From Octopus vulgaris (taxonomy: Eukaryota), in NCBI GenBank assembly GCA_951406725.2, contig OX597831.1:7564001-7628000 (forward strand): 64,000 nt of DNA, given 5' to 3'. Of the stretch, positions 21,001 through 63,000 are shown one piece after another (within the stretch, counting starts at the first letter, position 1; each line of letters starts with the position of its first letter). A program made the position numbers.

Positions 21001-24000
21001 AAGTCCAGATAATGTCTTCTGTGCTAACACGGAAAACGGACGTTAAACGATGATGATGATGATGATATATATACACATATAAAGGTGGCGAGTTGGTAGA
21101 AACGTTAGCACGCCAGGCAAAATACGTAGCTGTATTTCGTCTGCCGCCACATTCTGAGTTCAAATTCCGCCGAGGTCGACTTTTCCTTTCATCCTTTCGG
21201 GTCGATAAATTAAGTACCAGTTATGCACTGGGGTCGATGTAATTGACTTAATCTGTTTGCCTGTCCTTGTTTGTCCCCTCTGCGTTCAGCCCTTGTTGGT
21301 AGTAAAGAAATAGGTATTTCGTCTGCGGTTACGTTCTGAGTTCAAATTCCGCCGAGGTCGACTTTGCCTTTCATCCTTTCAGGGTCGATAAATTAAGTAC
21401 CAGTTAAGCACTGGGATTGATATAATCGACTTAATCTGTTTGTCTGTCCTTGTTTGTCCCCTGTATTTAGCTCCTTGTTGGTAGTAAAGAGATAGATATA
21501 TATATATACACACATTGTGTGTATGTGAGTAAAGAGATAGATATATATATACACACATTGTGTGTATGTGAGTAAATGGATAGATTGATTGATAAACAGT
21601 TGTTCAAAAATCCATTATAGATCTTCAAGTAGTACAACTAAATGTTTTCTTTAAGAAACACACACACACACACAAACACATCTACCTGTGTTACATGTAC
21701 GACTCCACCATTATATTAGAACTTTATAGAATTGCAAGTTGGCAGTTCTCCAATAACTGTGATATTGATGAGACATTCAGGCTCTTGTTGTTAAGGGAAG
21801 CACCAAAGGACAGGAAATATATTTACATTACAAAATCTTCCAAAAACCAATCACCAGAAATATTGATAATGATCCGAGTGTTTTTAACTTTTTCGCTAAT
21901 GACAATGATGTGTGTCTTTATGCAACAGTTACAGGTTATAATGAGGATAATCAGAAAACGGTAAGCCCCACAACAATAGAGGAATATATAATTCGAAGAG
22001 ATGGAGACTTGGTCAATGTAAAATCACGTCTCACCAGGGCACAGCAGCCATTTACTTTATTCAAAAGACAGGCAAAGACATGGCTGTGTGGTAAGAAGCT
22101 TGCTTTTTCAACCAACCACATGGTTCTGGGTTCAGTTCTACTGCTTGACACCTTGGGCAAGTGTCTTCTGCTATAGCCTTGGGCCCACCAAAGCCTTGTG
22201 AGTGGATTTGGTAGACGGAAACTGAAAGAAACCAGGGCTACAGTAGAAGACACTTGTCCAAAGTGCTGCACAGTGAGATTGATCCAAGACCACAAGGTTG
22301 GGAAGCCATCCCTTTGCCTATTATGGACATAAAACCCTGAAAAACGCTTAGAAGCTAGTGTTTAGCTCTTGAGTCCCAGCTATGTAGCATCGTTATTTTA
22401 CATCTTCTCTCAATGGCTAGGATGGATAGAAGCAATCCTAACTGGGTCTTATTTGTAGTTACAACCCTCCTAGATGTGTTAGAGAGCCAGATCTCACTTG
22501 TACATTTGTCCTATGGCTGGGTGCCCTTCCTTCACACAGTATGTGGATTGGATGTATTTTATTGTAATACTAACACTAAAGAGGTTGTCATGTTATTGAC
22601 AAGACAAGAATAAAGAATTGTCTTGACTCCTTATCATTTCCTTAAACAGGCATCACAGAGAAATGATCTGCTCTGTTCCTGGAAGTCAGATGAACTGAGT
22701 CAGTGAAGAGTAAAATGGTAAGGTTGGTGCTGACATTTTTAATGGAGTGGACCAAGAAATTTTAATTCATTTGAATTATACTGTTGGGAGAAGAAAGGAG
22801 ATGACCCTAGAATTTTAATTAATTAGAGTTGAAAGTCAGTAATGGTGTGCTGAGTAAGTAGGACCTAGCAAATTGTGGGTTTGAACTTATTACCTCTATG
22901 TTGGCATTTCAATAGTTTATCCCCTTGACCAGTTCCTTCGTACCAATCTGTAAATCAACAACTAATATCATAACTCAGTAGATTTAAAAACCTTTGCGGT
23001 GACATTATAGAATGAACTCTCAAGGTTTGGTCACCAAATAAGTCATGGTCTCATATCCTAATAATTTATTTTGAAAAATAATACTGTAAGCTCTTGTTTG
23101 TTTGTGTGTTTGTAAACACACACACACACACACACACACATCACACAAAAGACAAAAAATGTGATAGAAATCACCATCATGTCGATATCTAAAAATATCC
23201 AATAAATCATTAACAGGTGGATTTATTAGTGTGATATATAACAGGTGGATTAGAGACATTCAAACATAATTCTTAATACATTATTATAATACATTACATA
23301 GACCACATCTCCAACGAGATGTCGCCCTGGCCACATTAGTTCTGGACAGAGTCCTTGCATGGTTGCTGTTATGCGTGGTCAATTGTTCGTTCATTTCTTG
23401 GTGAGGATTCAATGAACCTACATGATGTTCCTCATGTGTTGTTTCTAAAGATGGAGCGACTTCGTTAACTTCATTACTAGTTTGATTGGGTTTTACAGAA
23501 CTGGGAACAAATGATTTGGATTCTGTTGTACTTTTGCTATTCTCATCGTTAATAAAATAATGTGAAATTCGGTGGATAATCTCCTTGTATTTATCCGCCA
23601 AGTCAGCAGTCATACCTGAGCTTCCGTGTCCCCCAATACCTGCAAAACGATGAAGATTATTGGTAAGTTAAAAGATAAATGCTAGACAAGATGGTTTGGG
23701 TCAGATTAACCAAGAAACAAGTTTAACAAATGCTCTGAGCCCTATACTTTCATCAATGATAATCAATGAATTTCAGAATCAATCGGTGATTGAACAGTAG
23801 GCCTGTTCTTCCCAACTGATCAGTTTGTGCTGCACAAGTATATGGAGTTCCATCAACAACAGATTGTTCCAGATATAGAAACAATTTCACAAAAATGTCA
23901 CAAAAATTCTGTACATCGAAGTTTGCCACTTGTTAAAACATATTTCTCAACTTTTATATCCTCCAAATATTTTAATTTAGATAAACTTGTTTATAGACAA

Positions 24001-60000: not shown

Positions 60001-63000
60001 TCAAAGCAGACATTGGAACTTGGTGTAGTCCTTGGACACATCGGATCCAATCAAACCCTACCAGAATAGAACATGGACATTAAATGATGATGACGATGAT
60101 GAAATAAAAGTGTCCTACCTTTGAAGGAATGCGTTTACAGATGAGATCAAACTTTTGCAACAACCCCAACAGGGCTGCCTTATGTTCAAGTTCATCATTC
60201 CATAAATAATTTATCAGTTGCTCATCCAGAAGCCCATATTTCTCCAGTTGCTGTCTCTTCTCAACATAAACACTGTCCTGTAAGAAAACTGACTTTTGTA
60301 AGAATACAAAATGACTGAATAAGAAAAGGAATTCAAGTATACCTATTTCTTTACTACCCACAAGGGGCTAAACATAGAGTGGACAAACAAGGACAGACGG
60401 ATTAAGTTGATTACATCGACCCCAGTGCGTAACTGGTACTTAATTTATCAACCCCGAAAGGATGAAAGGCAAAGTCAACCTCGGCGGAATTTGAACTCAG
60501 AACATAACGGCAGACGAAATATGGCTACGCATTTCGCCCGGCGTGCTAACGTTTCTGCCAGCTCGCCTTTATTTATATATATATATATATATATATATAT
60601 ATATATATATATATATATATATATATATATACACACACACACACACACAAACATTCATATATGCATGCATATCTACCTCCGTATGTATGTATGCTGCTAC
60701 GTGTGAACACATATGCATATGTGTGTGTGTGTGTGTGTGTTATTCTAGCACTTTGATTATGTAGCTGAATGTTATTTATTTCTGCTAATTTTCTTCCTCT
60801 CTCTCTTTTTGTCTTCGTCTTCTCTTTCTGTTGTTGTAAAATTCACTTCGGCTGGCTCTGGCCCACGTCTGAAATCTCGTGTCTATGTTTATACATTTAC
60901 TAATTTCATCAGCTGCTCATTACAAGTGACTCCACTTGCTTCTCTTCCCTTGTGGTGCTTTAAACCTTCCATACACAAGAGACTGTTGATTGTTTCGCCA
61001 TTGCAAATATAATTACATGGAGCTTCATTCAACAAGTCTTTTAACAATGTCAGTGCCAGACAAATGAATAAAGGTGAATAACGAAGCTTCTTTCAATACA
61101 CCTCTGTTATAGACCTCCTCAGTCAAACCCCACTCCCACAGGAATTGAATAATTGTAGCAGTAGATGTCTCTTTTCCATTTGTTTATAAATTTTCTCAGC
61201 TTTTTGGTTTTCCTTTGTCTGGCTGACGTAACTCCTTAATTTTGGGGGGTCACCTTACTTCCTTACTTTCTGGGATTGCTAATAAAGTATTTCTTCTATA
61301 GTGACAGGCATGGCTGTGTGGTTAAGAAGCTTGCTTCCCAACTATGTTGTCTCGAGTTCACTCCCTCTGTGCAGCACCTTGGATGAATGTCTTTTCCTAT
61401 AACCCTGAGTTGACCAATGTCATGTGAGTAAATTTAGCAGACAGAGACTGTGTGGAAGCCTATTGTGTGTGTGTATATATATATATATGTGCATGTGTAT
61501 TTGTGCATGTATCTTTGCATTTATGTTTGTCCCTTCCCCGTTGCTTGACCACCAGTGTATGCCCCTATGACTTAGTGGTTCAGCAGAAAAATCTGATAGC
61601 ATAAATACTGGGATTGATTTGTTCAAACCCTTCAAGGCAGTACTCCAGCATGACCACAGGCCAATAACTGAAACAAATAAAAGGTCAATGTCCAGAGACA
61701 CACCTTAGTCAAAATTAACCATGTATCTAAGTCTGTATATTCAGACCTGGACAAGATTTCTTTTATTCCTTTTTGTGGACGACCGACGGTCAGTCAGTCA
61801 TGGATGAAAGACTCCTCTCTGTGTCACCAGTGCTATCCAAGAGAAAGGCTGCACCACTTTCGGGCCAGTGTGGCATGGTACCAGCGTTGCCACAGACATT
61901 ACTGCCAGAAGGAAAAAGATTGGAACTGAAACCAGAAAGCATCTGCTGCAACAGTTTCACCAATCACTCTTTGCTTTATTGACCCCTTGAAAGGATGAAA
62001 AGTAAAATTGACATCAGCAGGAATTGAACCCAGAATGCAGAGTATTACAACAAATACCACGAGGTATTCTATTTAATGTCTTATCAACTTTGTCAAACCT
62101 TGCCATCCATATATATGTTTTTCGTTCTTCTATTATCTTCTGACACTGTTAAGGAGGAGTTGGTCCTCACATCTCTGGACTCCTATGCAAGATCATTTCG
62201 GCCAATATTGTATCATTCTAAGTATAGATTATTATTATTATTTTAGATGAGTTGCCAGAACAATGGAGTACCAGGGTTAGTCTTGGGAAGGTTGGTATCA
62301 AAAGGGTTAAGATAACAGGGTGTGATTTGAGGGAAATTTGGCTGATATTTCTAGCATGCCATGTGACTGCATAGCAGCTTGGCATATTTCAAGCTTATTC
62401 TCATCATTTTCAATATTATCAACACAACAGAATTTGTAGCATCTGTCAATTCTATTTCCTAAAAACCTTTCTGATAACAAACGTTCATTCTCTCATATAT
62501 CTTTTAATTAATTCTTAAGATGCTAAGCTGACAGGATTGTGAACACATCAGACAAAATGCTTTGCAACATTTCTTCTGGCACTTTACATTCAGAGTTCAA
62601 ATTCTGCTGCGGTCATCTTTGCTTTTCATCCTTTTGGGGGTGGATAAAATAAATACCAGTTGAACACTGGGGGGTGTCAATGTAATCAACTGAACTCTTC
62701 CCACAAAAACTGCCGGCATGGTGCCAACATTTGAAGCCATTATTTAATCAGGGGAAGGGCAGCACCTAAGAGCATATGTAGTCCCCCCTAACTGGTGAGA
62801 CAAATGTTGCCAATGTCCAATTAAAGCGGCTGCTTTCCTACCACAATTCCAAGAAAGCATTGCAAGTAAAAGGTATCCACAATCATATTAAAATAATATT
62901 TCTTTATTGCCCACAGGGGCTAAACACAGAGGGGACAAACAAGGACAGACAAGGGGATTAAGTCGATTGTATCGAGCCCAGTGCATAACTGGTATTTATT

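What the first reader, a model, noticed from the sequence alone, without database searches (positions are those of the whole stretch)
23284..60277. Roco-type COR-Death-TIR protein with a prenylation tail: candidate one-chain immune or cell-death signalosome
Seen: 11 phase-compatible exons give a 614-aa C-terminal part reading COR, Cys/His linker, Death, TIR, disordered tail, CaaX. Known: COR always follows a Roc GTPase in Roco proteins (LRRK1/2, DAPK1, MFHAS1). DAPK1 has COR then Death. A Death+TIR tandem is the MyD88 adaptor layout, and LRR-Roc-COR-TIR proteins occur in prokaryotes. Here there is no kinase after COR, and the TIR is TIR_2/SARM-like rather than MyD88-like. Inference: a GTP-switched, membrane-anchored oligomerisation platform driving both Death-fold and TIR outputs. 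I know of no characterised protein with this full architecture, but unannotated invertebrate homologues probably exist.
Basis: partly seen in the sequence, partly recalled or inferred. Interest (0 to 1): 0.9.

Follow-up and report, generated by a model that had tools for sequence, protein, structure and literature searches.

The report
Octopus Roco protein with Death-TIR output
These eleven exons are the back half of an octopus gene for a large GTPase-switch protein, conserved in many invertebrate phyla but never studied, that ends in a Death domain, a probably NAD-cleaving TIR domain and a lipid membrane anchor.

Summary
Eleven minus-strand exons (60277 to 23284) have AG/GT borders and no internal stops. 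They sum to 1845 nt, which is 614 codons plus a stop. They match residues 651-1264 of NCBI "uncharacterized protein LOC106875913 [Octopus bimaculoides]" (P0001), with 598 of 609 whole codons identical.

The predicted Roc exists in P0001, behind an N-terminal Neuralized (NHR) domain, but both lie beyond the window.

The architecture is not unique. The same ~1250-aa protein occurs in molluscs, annelids, nemerteans, a flatworm, rotifers, mites, hemichordates, echinoderms and amphioxus, at 39-54% identity over residues 540-1150 outside cephalopods and mites. It has been noted in passing in print (PMC5094078, PMC9334734).

The TIR is closest to bacterial NADase TIRs and SARM1, not MyD88. The Glu aligned with the bacterial WxxxE Glu is invariant in 31 of 31 orthologues, as is the CaaX cysteine.

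Best reading: a geranylgeranyl-anchored Roco switch gating a SARM1-like TIR enzyme. Function is untested. This is a new member of a catalogued but uncharacterised family, of moderate interest.

The parts
60119..60277 (-). Exon 1 of the window part (P0001 residues 651-703): C-terminal end of COR-A
   Evidence: tblastn 53/53 identical. Pfam COR-A positions 82-127 of 143, E 0.0032 on the ORF. AG acceptor and GT donor.
57523..57652 (-). Exon 2 (residues 704-746 plus 1 base): end of COR-A and start of COR-B
   Evidence: 43/43 identical to P0001. The Pfam COR-A hit on P0001 ends at residue 715. The A1 profile matches C. tepidum Roco COR chains across positions 494-756.
55609..55766 (-). Exon 3 (residues 747-799): COR-B
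   Evidence: 50/52 identical to P0001. The equivalent region of the oyster orthologue model is strand-helix-strand, and the model matches the COR domain 3dpt_B with TMt 0.74.
51489..51590 (-). Exon 4 (residues 800-833): last COR-B strand and a low-confidence loop
   Evidence: 34/34 identical to P0001. AG/GT borders.
49192..49371 (-). Exon 5 (residues 834-893): long helix, then the first part of the Cys/His module (C861, C863, C867, H870, C875, C880, H882, C889)
   Evidence: 59/60 identical to P0001. C861, C863, H882 and C889 are invariant in 31/31 orthologues. This exon alone finds only 62 proteins at E<=1e-3 among 1.84 billion representatives.
40614..40686 (-). Exon 6 (residues 894-917 plus 1 base): end of the Cys/His module (C897 in 30/31, H899 in 21/31)
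   Evidence: 24/24 identical to P0001. Conservation counts.
39394..39552 (-). Exon 7 (residues 918-971): linker and first half of the Death domain
   Evidence: 51/52 identical to P0001. Pfam Death on P0001 covers 958-1026.
37569..37742 (-). Exon 8 (residues 971-1028): second half of the Death domain
   Evidence: 57/57 identical to P0001. Pfam Death E 5.7e-6, 26.8 bits against a cutoff of 22.6, on this ORF alone.
36883..37058 (-). Exon 9 (residues 1029-1087): first half of the TIR, from strand A through the Gly-rich BB-loop region (GQMGGGD) to helix B
   Evidence: Pfam TIR_2 positions 1-53, E 1.1e-12. The best solved relatives of this exon alone are bacterial TIRs: AbTIR 7uwg 2.5e-5, 8g83, 3h16. 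57/58 identical to P0001.
25736..25913 (-). Exon 10 (residues 1088-1147): second half of the TIR. The candidate catalytic Glu (E1106, motif CNRE) is at 25859-25857, followed by WPPPGG
   Evidence: Pfam TIR_2 positions 54-109, E 4.8e-6. 59/59 identical to P0001. E1106 is invariant in 31/31 and aligns with the Glu of WTNYE in AbTIR.
23284..23639 (-). Exon 11 (residues 1147-1264 plus stop). It holds the invariant GGHGxxG loop (23634-23614), the last TIR helix, a disordered S/T/N/E-rich tail, the conserved C-terminal C-x-x-C-N-V-L with CaaX box at 23298-23287, and the stop at 23286-23284
   Evidence: 111/117 identical to P0001. GGHG is invariant and the CaaX Cys is 31/31. The tail has pLDDT<50 in the orthologue model.

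Best explanation
**Shown.** The window holds the last 11 exons (614 codons) of the octopus orthologue of one conserved invertebrate protein of about 1250 residues. Its order is Neuralized homology repeat (NHR), Roc GTPase, COR-A, COR-B, a family-specific Cys/His (probably two-zinc) module, a Death domain, a TIR_2 domain, a disordered tail and a C-terminal C-x-x-C-a-a-L box. NHR, Roc and most of COR-A lie upstream of the window.

**Inferred mechanism.**
1. The C-terminal Cys is geranylgeranylated (X = Leu) and the Cys three residues before it is probably palmitoylated, which holds the protein on a membrane.
2. The NHR, a SPRY-like peptide-binding fold, binds a partner or ligand.
3. The Roc-COR pair acts as the nucleotide-dependent switch and dimeriser, as in LRRK2 and bacterial Roco proteins.
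4. Switching brings the C-terminal TIR domains together head to tail, through the invariant BB-loop and the invariant loop before the last helix.
5. The assembled TIR cleaves NAD+ using the invariant Glu, as SARM1 and bacterial TIRs do, either depleting NAD+ or making an ADP-ribose-type signal.
6. The p75NTR/NRADD-like Death domain either helps assembly or recruits a second Death-fold partner.

In logic this is a sensor - NTPase switch - effector protein: a GTPase-gated relative of SARM1.
For: **Gene model**
- There are 11 AG/GT exons, 1845 nt in all, with no internal stops. 598/609 whole codons are identical to P0001.

**Domains**
- Pfam on P0001: Neuralized 1.2e-36, Roc 9e-11, COR-A 5.9e-18, Death 1.8e-7, TIR_2 1.8e-23.
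- A profile of 31 orthologues against the PDB gives these matches:
  - Neuralized NHR1: 1.5e-44
  - M. barkeri and C. tepidum Roco: 1e-31 to 4e-23
  - LRRK2 and LRRK1: 8e-18 and weaker
  - NRADD and p75NTR Death domains: 4e-12 and 2e-10
  - bacterial TIRs: 1.6e-6 to 1.3e-5
  - SARM1 TIR: 2e-4
  - no MyD88 or TLR TIR at <=1e-3

**Structure**
- The AF2 model of the oyster orthologue has pLDDT 71.2. Its best PDB neighbours are LRRK1, C. tepidum Roco and LRRK2. The next class is C. elegans TIR-1 and human SARM1, at E 2e-5.

**Catalytic Glu**
- The Glu of CNRE aligns with the Glu of WTNYE (AbTIR), WTEYE (7uxr) and WPQKE (3h16). It is present in 31/31 orthologues.
- The requirement for a catalytic Glu and for TIR self-association through BB-loop/EE-surface and AE interfaces comes from passages of PMC8635717.

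**Lipid anchor**
- Cys at position -4 in 31/31, aliphatic a2 in 31/31, terminal Leu in 30/31, Cys at -7 in 29/31.
- 54 of all 63 hits end in C-x-x-X.

**Roc motifs**
- The P-loop Lys is present in 31/31 and the switch II DxxG in 30/31.

**One transcript**
- Nine full-length relatives of 1233-1316 aa sit on contigs of only 4.1-6.3 kb. That leaves no room for introns, so they look like transcripts.
Against: - No expression or junction data exist for this window. The Roc and NHR exons are not in the window.
- NADase activity, GTP binding, prenylation and zinc binding are all untested.
- The Trp of the bacterial WxxxE motif is not kept; position 1102 is variable.
- The SARM1 sequence match is weak: 2e-4 with the profile and 0.0086 with a single sequence. 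Its alignment was not printed, so equivalence to SARM1's catalytic Glu is indirect.
- The guanine-specificity Asp of the Roc G4 motif is kept in only 8/31 orthologues and is Asn in octopus. Nucleotide handling may therefore be atypical.
- The structural model is of an oyster orthologue and only moderately confident (pTM 0.58). The invariant GGHG loop is modelled with pLDDT<50.
- A Death + TIR pair is also what a non-enzymatic adaptor looks like.
Confidence: 0.6

Rival explanations
1. Same gene and architecture, but the TIR is a non-enzymatic scaffold. The Death + TIR pair would act like MyD88, bridging TIR-bearing receptors to Death-domain kinases at the membrane, with Roc-COR only tuning availability.
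For: - The Death-then-TIR order is the MyD88 layout.
- The MyD88 Death domain is among the profile hits, at 3.1e-5.
- The Trp of the bacterial WxxxE motif is not conserved.
- A Hydra TRR-2 TIR also scores 5.5e-4.
Against: - No MyD88, MAL or TLR TIR reaches E<=1e-3 with the profile, or E<=1 with the single TIR sequence. Bacterial TIR chains (AbTIR named an NAD+ hydrolase in the PDB) and SARM1 do.
- The Glu aligned with the bacterial WxxxE Glu is invariant in 31/31.
- After the Roco proteins, the fold neighbours are TIR-1 and SARM1.
- The Death domain is closer to NRADD and p75NTR (4e-12) than to MyD88.
Confidence: 0.25
2. Gene-model artefact. The exons would belong to two neighbouring genes, a Roco gene and a Death-TIR gene, joined by prediction. 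Alternatively, some of the 11 exons are not used together.
For: - There are no RNA data for this window.
- Introns are long, up to about 11 kb (36882-25914).
- P0001 is a computed RefSeq model and shows a probable local mis-splice in its Roc domain.
- Death-TIR-only proteins exist in deuterostomes: P0059, P0060, P0062.
Against: - By my count of the table, 40 of 63 hits carry all five Pfam families and 50 of 63 carry Roc + COR-A + Death + TIR_2. They come from many annotation pipelines and phyla.
- Nine full-length ORFs lie on 4.1-6.3 kb contigs with no room for introns.
- All junction phases fit and every exon is collinear with P0001.
- Run-through ORF fragments from other species lose homology at the exon 5/6 border (9 of the 18 fetched, my count), which suggests the intron position is conserved.
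Confidence: 0.03
3. A decaying or non-functional copy (pseudogene) of the family in this genome.
For: There are 11 amino-acid differences from P0001, six of them in the last exon.
Against: - No stops or frameshifts occur in any exon, and all splice sites are intact.
- None of the 11 differences touches a column that is invariant in the 31 orthologues. Six lie in the unconserved tail.
- The catalytic Glu, the Zn ligands, GGHG and CaaX are all intact.
Confidence: 0.02

Closest known systems
NHR-Roc-COR-Death-TIR_2 proteins of other invertebrates (e.g. NCBI 'uncharacterized protein LOC106875913' of Octopus bimaculoides, 'neuralized PATS1' of Saccoglossus kowalevskii)
   Same: The domain order and length (about 1240-1310 aa) are the same. 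The window part is 98% identical to the O. bimaculoides protein and 39-54% identical, over residues 540-1150, to those of other phyla apart from mites at 34-35%. The Zn ligands, TIR Glu, GGHG loop and C-terminal lipid box are the same.
   Different: Nothing of substance; this is the family the gene belongs to. No member has a tested function. Every source name seen is uncharacterised, hypothetical or rule-based.
LRRK2 / LRRK1 and bacterial Roco proteins (C. tepidum, M. barkeri)
   Same: A Roc-COR tandem with COR-A and COR-B. These are the best sequence-profile and fold matches.
   Different: There is no kinase, no LRR, ankyrin or WD40 repeats, and an NHR at the N-terminus. The output after COR is Zn module + Death + TIR + lipid anchor. 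The Roc carries long disordered inserts, and Asn replaces the G4 Asp.
DAPK1 (recalled; no DAPK1 Roc-COR or Death chain appeared in my PDB searches)
   Same: A Roco protein with a Death domain C-terminal to COR.
   Different: No kinase, calmodulin-binding or ankyrin region was found by Pfam. This protein adds a TIR and a CaaX box. Its Death domain is closest to NRADD and p75NTR.
SARM1 / C. elegans TIR-1
   Same: A TIR of the enzyme-type clade. SARM1 and TIR-1 are the best non-Roco fold neighbours (E about 2e-5), and SARM1 TIR is a profile hit at 2e-4. An invariant Glu lies at the position aligned with the bacterial WxxxE Glu. A helical oligomerising domain sits directly before the TIR.
   Different: No ARM or SAM domains. 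The proposed regulation is by a GTPase rather than by an NMN/NAD-sensing ARM. It is lipid-anchored. It is not an orthologue of SARM1.
Bacterial TIR NADases (AbTIR 7uwg/8g83, 7uxr, PdTIR 3h16)
   Same: These are the closest solved TIRs by sequence, at 8e-6 to 2.5e-4. The alignment runs through the Glu.
   Different: Only the TIR domain is related. No relative was found in 185,579 bacterial and archaeal genomes using the family's two most conserved TIR motifs: 25 pattern matches, 0 confirmed.
MyD88
   Same: Death domain followed by TIR. The MyD88 Death domain is a weak profile hit at 3e-5.
   Different: The TIR is not MyD88-like, as no MyD88 TIR hit appeared. The pair sits at the end of a 1264-aa GTPase and is lipid-anchored.
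Sea-anemone 'Novel Gene 3' and coral relative (kinase-SH3-Roc-COR-Death-TIR; PMC5094078; Oculina patagonica P0061)
   Same: The Roc-COR-Death-TIR_2 core is shared. P0061 is 31% identical over 99% of residues 540-1150.
   Different: A kinase + SH3 replaces the NHR. P0061 has no CaaX end, no GGHG and no CxC...C..H pattern.

Membership tests
Roco proteins | Roc (Ras-like GTPase) domain with P-loop and DxxG directly N-terminal to COR | tested here: met
   Met in the 98%-identical database orthologue P0001: Pfam Roc 9e-11, P-loop GKDRVGKT, and WDFAGQ. These exons are not in the window; tblastn finds nothing of residues 1-649. For the window DNA itself this rests on orthology.
Roco proteins | COR domain (COR-A plus COR-B) | tested here: met
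   COR-A 5.9e-18 on P0001 residues 555-715. The profile matches C. tepidum Roco COR across positions 494-756. The fold match to COR domain 3dpt_B has TMt 0.74. Pfam COR-B itself is not reached on P0001, only weakly on two relatives (7e-5, below cutoff).
DAPK1-type Roco | Ser/Thr kinase and ankyrin repeats N-terminal to Roc | tested here: not met
   Pfam finds no kinase or ankyrin family on P0001 at E<=0.1. The N-terminus is Neuralized/NHR.
Death domain superfamily | Death-domain profile match above the curated cutoff, and a six-helix bundle | tested here: met
   Window exon 8 alone scores 26.8 bits against a cutoff of 22.6. NRADD and p75NTR Death domains match at 4e-12 and 2e-10. The oyster orthologue model has six helices at 807-893.
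Enzymatic (NAD+-cleaving) TIR domains: SARM1, plant and bacterial TIRs | TIR fold | tested here: met
   TIR_2 hits on window exons 9 and 10. Alternating strand/helix pattern in the model. Fold hits to TIR-1 and SARM1.
Enzymatic (NAD+-cleaving) TIR domains: SARM1, plant and bacterial TIRs | Catalytic glutamate at the conserved site | tested here: met
   E1106 aligns with the Glu of the WxxxE stretch of AbTIR, 7uxr and PdTIR and is invariant in 31/31. That this Glu is the catalytic one in AbTIR is recalled. The general requirement is from passages of PMC8635717. The alignment to SARM1 itself was not printed.
Enzymatic (NAD+-cleaving) TIR domains: SARM1, plant and bacterial TIRs | NAD+ hydrolase or cyclase activity dependent on self-association | not testable with these tools
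   Needs an enzyme assay.
SARM1 orthologues | ARM repeats and tandem SAM domains before the TIR | tested here: not met
   Pfam finds no ARM or SAM family on P0001.
MyD88 adaptors | MyD88-type TIR domain | tested here: not met
   No MyD88 TIR chain was among the 56 PDB hits of the profile (E<=1e-3) or the 16 hits of the single TIR sequence (E<=1). Only the MyD88 Death domain matched, at 3e-5.
CaaX-prenylated proteins | Cys at the fourth-last residue, aliphatic a2, and X that sets the lipid (Leu = geranylgeranyl; rule recalled) | tested here: met
   The window ends in CNVL then a stop. Cys 31/31, a2 I/V/L/M 31/31, Leu 30/31. Actual lipidation cannot be tested here.
Neuralized E3 ligases | NHR domain(s) plus C-terminal RING | tested here: not met
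   The NHR is present in P0001 (1.2e-36; PDB 2yue 1.5e-44), but Pfam finds no RING. The NHR lies outside the window.

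The most novel reading that the evidence does not exclude
This would be a second SARM1-like executioner or signalling NADase, conserved across many invertebrate phyla and overlooked because none of the 132 hits (63 + 69, overlapping) was from a vertebrate, insect or nematode. Its TIR would be switched on not by a metabolite-sensing ARM domain but by a membrane-anchored Roco GTPase. 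That GTPase carries an NHR sensor, a family-specific two-zinc module, and a Roc domain that has largely given up the guanine-specifying Asp. The invariant BB-loop and GGHG loop would form a dedicated head-to-tail TIR interface.
Probability: 0.3. Interest if true: 0.7.

Novelty: new member of a known kind. Interest (0 to 1): 0.45.

Why it matters
Roco GTPases are studied mostly through LRRK2 and Parkinson's disease. Enzymatic TIR domains are studied through SARM1 (axon death), plant NLRs and bacterial defence.

This family joins the two in one chain. It is conserved at 39-54% identity, over residues 540-1150, across most phyla sampled. In most species listed only one protein, or isoforms of one locus, appeared.

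If the TIR is active, the family would give a natural system in which a Roc-COR switch has a simple, measurable output (NAD+ loss). That would help with the open question of what Roc-COR switching does mechanically. It would also reveal an NAD-linked death or signalling pathway not found here in vertebrates, insects or nematodes.

The two Roco reviews that came up in my search held no occurrence of 'TIR domain' (listing). The family therefore seems to have escaped that field.

As it stands, this is a correct gene reading of an already catalogued but unstudied family.

Tried and rejected
- **Wrong exon 2.** I first took the ORF at 59125-59475 for exon 2. Pfam gave only a chance DUF5733 hit, and tblastn placed the real exon at 57652-57523.
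- **Exon 10 alone against the PDB.** No TIR hit at E<=1; it is too short. I then used one stretch of the stored orthologue P0001.
- **Cys/His module.**
  - The fold search of a 119-residue model gave 0 matches at E<=0.001; the best was E 4.2, a CCHC finger.
  - ESM Atlas gave leads under 0.9 only (0.86, 0.81), two of them COR-associated clusters.
  - No known fold could be assigned.
- **Odd hits of the exon-5 search.** P0109 (KASH protein), P0112 (Ig/PKD repeats) and P0101 (retrotransposon protease/integrase) were checked by Pfam. I set them aside as Cys-rich chance matches or chimeric models. P0116 (7 matched stretches) was not scanned and was set aside by analogy with P0112.
- **Bacterial and archaeal genomes.** 25 motif matches, none confirmed. 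This gives no support for a recent prokaryotic origin of this TIR.
- **RNA genes.** Rfam and tRNA scans of the whole window found nothing.
- **Other ORFs in the window.** Pfam on 10 of them found only a LINE-type endonuclease. I saw no second gene.
- **Complex prediction for TIR self-association.** Nothing was folded.
- **Gerdol et al. 2017 TIR-DC classification** (DOI 10.1016/j.dci.2017.01.014). Not held, so I could not see whether it already names this family.
- **Supplements.** Supplementary tables of PMC5094078 (Table S10 architectures) are closed. The Strigamia and C. gigas statement rests on the paper's text only.
- **Joined model.** The spliced window model was not assembled, searched or folded. 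Full-length work used database proteins.

Full report
**What is in the window**

The window is AT-rich (33-42% G+C), repeat-laden eukaryotic DNA without any N. The finding lies on the minus strand.

One exon-bearing ORF (window 60120-60313) was used as a query against longer proteins. It returned a single hit: P0001, NCBI "uncharacterized protein LOC106875913 [Octopus bimaculoides]", 1264 aa, 100% identical over the exonic part.

tblastn of P0001 against the window places residues 650-1264 on eleven separate stretches, each with E between 2e-12 and 2e-65. It finds nothing credible for residues 1-649.

**The gene model**

Splice sites were fixed by phase arithmetic.

| Exon | Coordinates (minus strand) |
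|---|---|
| E1 | 60277-60119 |
| E2 | 57652-57523 |
| E3 | 55766-55609 |
| E4 | 51590-51489 |
| E5 | 49371-49192 |
| E6 | 40686-40614 |
| E7 | 39552-39394 |
| E8 | 37742-37569 |
| E9 | 37058-36883 |
| E10 | 25913-25736 |
| E11 | 23639-23284 (with stop) |

- All 11 acceptors are AG and all 10 donors are GT.
- Five codons are split across junctions, and their phases match.
- No exon has an internal stop.
- Of 609 whole codons, 598 equal P0001. Six of the 11 differences lie in the unconserved tail.

My own first candidate for exon 2 (59125-59475) was wrong.

Window sequence was searched exon by exon. Full-length questions were put to database proteins by id.

**Domains, exon by exon**

- Pfam on single exon ORFs gives COR-A (0.0032, a fragment of the model), Death (5.7e-6, above the curated cutoff) and TIR_2 (1.1e-12 and 4.8e-6).
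- On P0001, Pfam gives Neuralized 3-154, Roc 378-419 (with a split P-loop part), COR-A 555-715, Death 958-1026 and TIR_2 1036-1146. It finds no kinase, LRR, ankyrin, ARM, SAM or RING.
- A profile of 31 orthologues against the PDB agrees and adds detail:
  - NHR1 of Drosophila Neuralized: 1.5e-44
  - M. barkeri and C. tepidum Roco, the latter covering COR to position 756: 1e-31 to 4e-23
  - LRRK2 and LRRK1: 8e-18 and weaker
  - NRADD and p75NTR Death domains: 4e-12 and 2e-10
  - MyD88 Death domain: 3e-5
- An AlphaFold2 model of the oyster orthologue P0017 was built from 35 aligned sequences (pLDDT 71.2, pTM 0.58). In order, it shows:
  - a Roc domain with three long disordered inserts
  - COR-A and COR-B
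  - a long helix
  - a small strand-rich Cys/His module (block means of pLDDT about 76-88)
  - six Death helices
  - a TIR
  - a low-confidence Gly-rich loop
  - one more helix
  - a disordered tail
- Its best PDB neighbours are LRRK1, C. tepidum Roco, LRRK2 and M. barkeri Roco. The next class is C. elegans TIR-1 and human SARM1, at E about 2e-5.

In window terms:

| Exons | Encodes |
|---|---|
| E1 | end of COR-A |
| E2-E4 | COR-B |
| E5-E6 | helix + Cys/His module |
| E7-E8 | Death domain |
| E9-E10 | TIR |
| E11 | GGHG loop, last TIR helix, tail, CaaX |

**The part outside the window**

It is preceded not by LRRs but by a Neuralized homology repeat. These exons lie beyond coordinate 64000.

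Two oddities were seen in the alignment:
- The G4 motif reads GTHRN. The guanine-specifying Asp is kept in only 8 of 31 orthologues; the rest have Asn (19), Ala (2), His (1) or Ser (1).
- The RefSeq model departs from the family consensus from about residue 403 in the Roc domain. This is probably a local mis-splice.

**The family**

Searching with P0001 residues 540-1150 gave 63 proteins at E<=1e-5, out of the 8000 best word-sharing candidates scored. A profile search gave 69 proteins at E<=1e-30.

- By my count of the table, 40 of 63 carry all five Pfam families (Neuralized, Roc, COR-A, Death, TIR_2). 50 of 63 carry Roc + COR-A + Death + TIR_2.
- The rest are partial models, isoforms without the NHR, and four kinds of relative:
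  - deuterostome Death-TIR_2-TIR_2 proteins
  - a coral kinase-SH3-Roc-COR-Death-TIR protein
  - one Roc-COR-TIR protein of unknown origin
  - echinoderm Roco paralogues with other outputs
- Named sources cover these groups:
  - cephalopods, a chiton, gastropods and bivalves
  - annelids (Owenia, Paralvinella)
  - nemerteans
  - a flatworm (Macrostomum)
  - rotifers
  - spider mites
  - hemichordates
  - echinoderms
  - amphioxus
- No vertebrate, insect or nematode appeared. That is weak evidence, because both searches scored only word-sharing candidates.
- Identity to octopus over residues 540-1150 is 39-54% in most other phyla and 34-35% in mites. Most species listed contributed one protein or isoforms of one locus.
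- Nine full-length relatives (1233-1316 aa) sit on contigs of 4.1-6.3 kb. That leaves no room for introns, so they look like assembled transcripts. This is indirect support that NHR-to-CaaX is one mRNA.
- Nine of the 18 run-through ORF fragments I fetched (my count) lose homology right after "...ECLxNK|V", which is the window's exon 5/6 border. This suggests an old intron.

**The TIR**

- Window exon 9 alone finds bacterial TIRs first: AbTIR at 2.5e-5, then PdTIR and others.
- The TIR stretch of P0001 finds, in order, AbTIR (7.8e-6), 7uxr, PdTIR, Hydra TRR-2, Cat1 and SARM1 (0.0086). No MyD88, MAL or TLR TIR appears at E<=1.
- In those alignments the Glu of "CNRE" sits under the Glu of WTNYE, WTEYE and WPQKE. 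That this is the catalytic Glu of AbTIR is my recollection. That enzyme TIRs need a catalytic Glu and self-association comes from passages of PMC8635717.
- These positions are invariant in 31/31 orthologues:
  - E1106
  - the BB-loop region GQMGGGD (G1067, G1070, G1072)
  - WPP (1127-1129)
  - the GGHGxxG loop between the last strand and the last helix
- According to PMC8635717, the BB-loop and the "EE surface" (strands D and E, helix E) form the head-to-tail TIR interface. I read the two invariant loops as the two sides of that interface. This is inference.
- The Trp of WxxxE is not conserved here.

**The Cys/His module**

- The consensus is C-x-C-x3-C-x2-H-x4-C-x4-C-x-H-x6-C-x7-C.
- C861, C863, H882 and C889 are invariant in 31/31.
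- C867, H870, C875 and C880 are present in 27/31. They are missing together as one block in the two hemichordates and two amphioxus sequences. The simplest reading is two zinc sites, the second dispensable.
- Exon 5 alone finds only 62 proteins at E<=1e-3 among 1.84 billion representatives. These are family members and fragments, plus a few Cys-rich or chimeric oddities.
- A separate model of the module (pLDDT 70.4) has no PDB neighbour at E<=0.001. The Atlas gave only sub-threshold leads.
- It appears to be specific to this family.

**The lipid box**

- All 31 aligned orthologues have Cys at -4 and an aliphatic a2. 30 end in Leu and one mite ends in Val. 29 have a second Cys at -7, and the other two have it at -6.
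- 54 of all 63 hits end in C-x-x-X. The nine that do not are truncated or alternative models, the coral protein and the Roc-COR-TIR protein.
- Leu at X points to geranylgeranylation, and a nearby Cys to palmitoylation. These rules are recalled.
- The preceding V-x-x-V-x-V-x-K stretch is also conserved outside cephalopods.

**How it probably works**

The architecture and the conservation are shown. The mechanism is inferred:
1. The protein is lipid-anchored.
2. Its NHR binds a partner.
3. Its Roc-COR pair switches or dimerises.
4. Switching brings the C-terminal TIRs into an active head-to-tail assembly.
5. That assembly cleaves NAD+.
6. The Death domain assists assembly or recruits a Death-fold partner.

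The main rival is a non-enzymatic MyD88-like adaptor. Artefact and pseudogene readings are unlikely.

High conservation, and one protein or one locus in most species listed, argue against a fast-diversifying pathogen receptor. They favour a conserved endogenous pathway. "Immune" is therefore not supported beyond analogy.

**What is known**

- PMC5094078 (2016, passages read) describes sea-anemone kinase-SH3-Roc-COR-Death-TIR genes. [quoted passage not shown]
- PMC9334734 (2022, passages read) shows Aplysia TIR + COR proteins in a figure whose legend lists NHR, ROC, COR, Death and TIR.
- PMC8195603 (passage read) groups Neuralized repeats with SPRY-like domains that are coupled to effectors in immunity.
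- The term "ecTIR-DC" (PMC6321704, passages read) points to Gerdol et al. 2017, which I could not read. It may already name this family.
- Searches for neuralized + ROCO + TIR, and four related term sets, found no functional study.
- Two Roco reviews listed show zero occurrences of "TIR domain".
- The architecture is therefore catalogued but uncharacterised.

**Limits**

- There are no RNA data for this species.
- The Roc and NHR exons were not seen in the window.
- The structural models are of relatives, not of the octopus protein.
- The SARM1 alignment was not printed.
- Supplements were closed.
- Absence from vertebrates, insects and nematodes was not rigorously tested.

Noticed in passing
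window 49470-50119: (GAAG)x162 microsatellite. On the transcribed minus strand this is a 650-nt CTTC polypyrimidine run ending about 100 nt upstream of the exon 5 acceptor at 49371. It could affect splicing of that exon.
   Followed up: partly
window 37191-37334: (ACT)x48 repeat inside the short (510 nt) intron between the Death exon 8 and TIR exon 9.
   Followed up: no
window 986-1462 (-): LINE-type endonuclease ORF (Pfam Exo_endo_phos_2, 7.9e-10), downstream of the gene. Nine other long ORFs gave no Pfam hit, and I saw no second gene in 1-23283.
   Followed up: partly
window, many places, e.g. 24031-24429, 31980-32399, 45705-46076, 47886-48383, 58851-59241; and 3845-4126, 20095-20367, 30021-30392, 48663-49052, 60323-60706: Two dispersed repeat families recur in the introns and flanks. 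They show up as recurring ORF translations ('...LQLDALPNANHS.SVVGAFYVPPAQVPGEAG...' and '...[43 protein letters not shown]...'). They look SINE-like.
   Followed up: no
window 9632-9940 (+) and 63296-63679 (-): These two stretches share a repeated ORF in opposite orientation ('CAPSGIASRWLPEE.SRNYL.FSSTTMSSKLDS'). There is no Pfam match.
   Followed up: no
P0001 from residue ~403 (outside the window): The RefSeq model departs from the family consensus inside the Roc domain ('VTLNELPLFLV' against 'VFLTSRAVYIIVFNL'). This is probably a mis-spliced exon in that model.
   Followed up: no
P0001 residue 480 and orthologues (outside the window): The Roc G4 motif is GTHRN. The guanine-specificity Asp is kept in only 8 of 31 orthologues; the others have Asn (19), Ala (2), His (1) or Ser (1). 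Nucleotide preference may be unusual.
   Followed up: partly
window 23634-23614 (exon 11); P0001 1149-1155: The G-G-H-G-x-x-G loop right after the last TIR strand is invariant in 31/31 orthologues, yet modelled with pLDDT<50. Its role is unknown. I suggest it is the receiving side of the TIR head-to-tail interface.
   Followed up: partly
relatives P0059, P0060, P0062 (hemichordate, sea star, sea cucumber): Death-TIR_2-TIR_2 proteins without Roc-COR also end in CaaX boxes. One has a K-Ras-like polybasic run (KKKKKSSVCAIL). A lipid-anchored Death-TIR cassette seems to be reused.
   Followed up: partly
relatives P0126-P0146 (echinoderms, corals, hemichordate, a mussel): Echinoderms, especially Amphiura, carry many Roco paralogues with swapped outputs: Macro + TIR, RIG-I-like helicase + CARD, kinase, ZU5. 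A hemichordate paralogue carries a DED. Corals have Roc-COR with NACHT or TPR (precomputed Pfam lists).
   Followed up: no
fragments P0064-P0107: Nine of the 18 run-through ORF fragments fetched (my count), from other species, lose homology just after '...ECLxNK|V'. This is the window's exon 5/6 border (49192/40686), which suggests an ancient intron position.
   Followed up: partly
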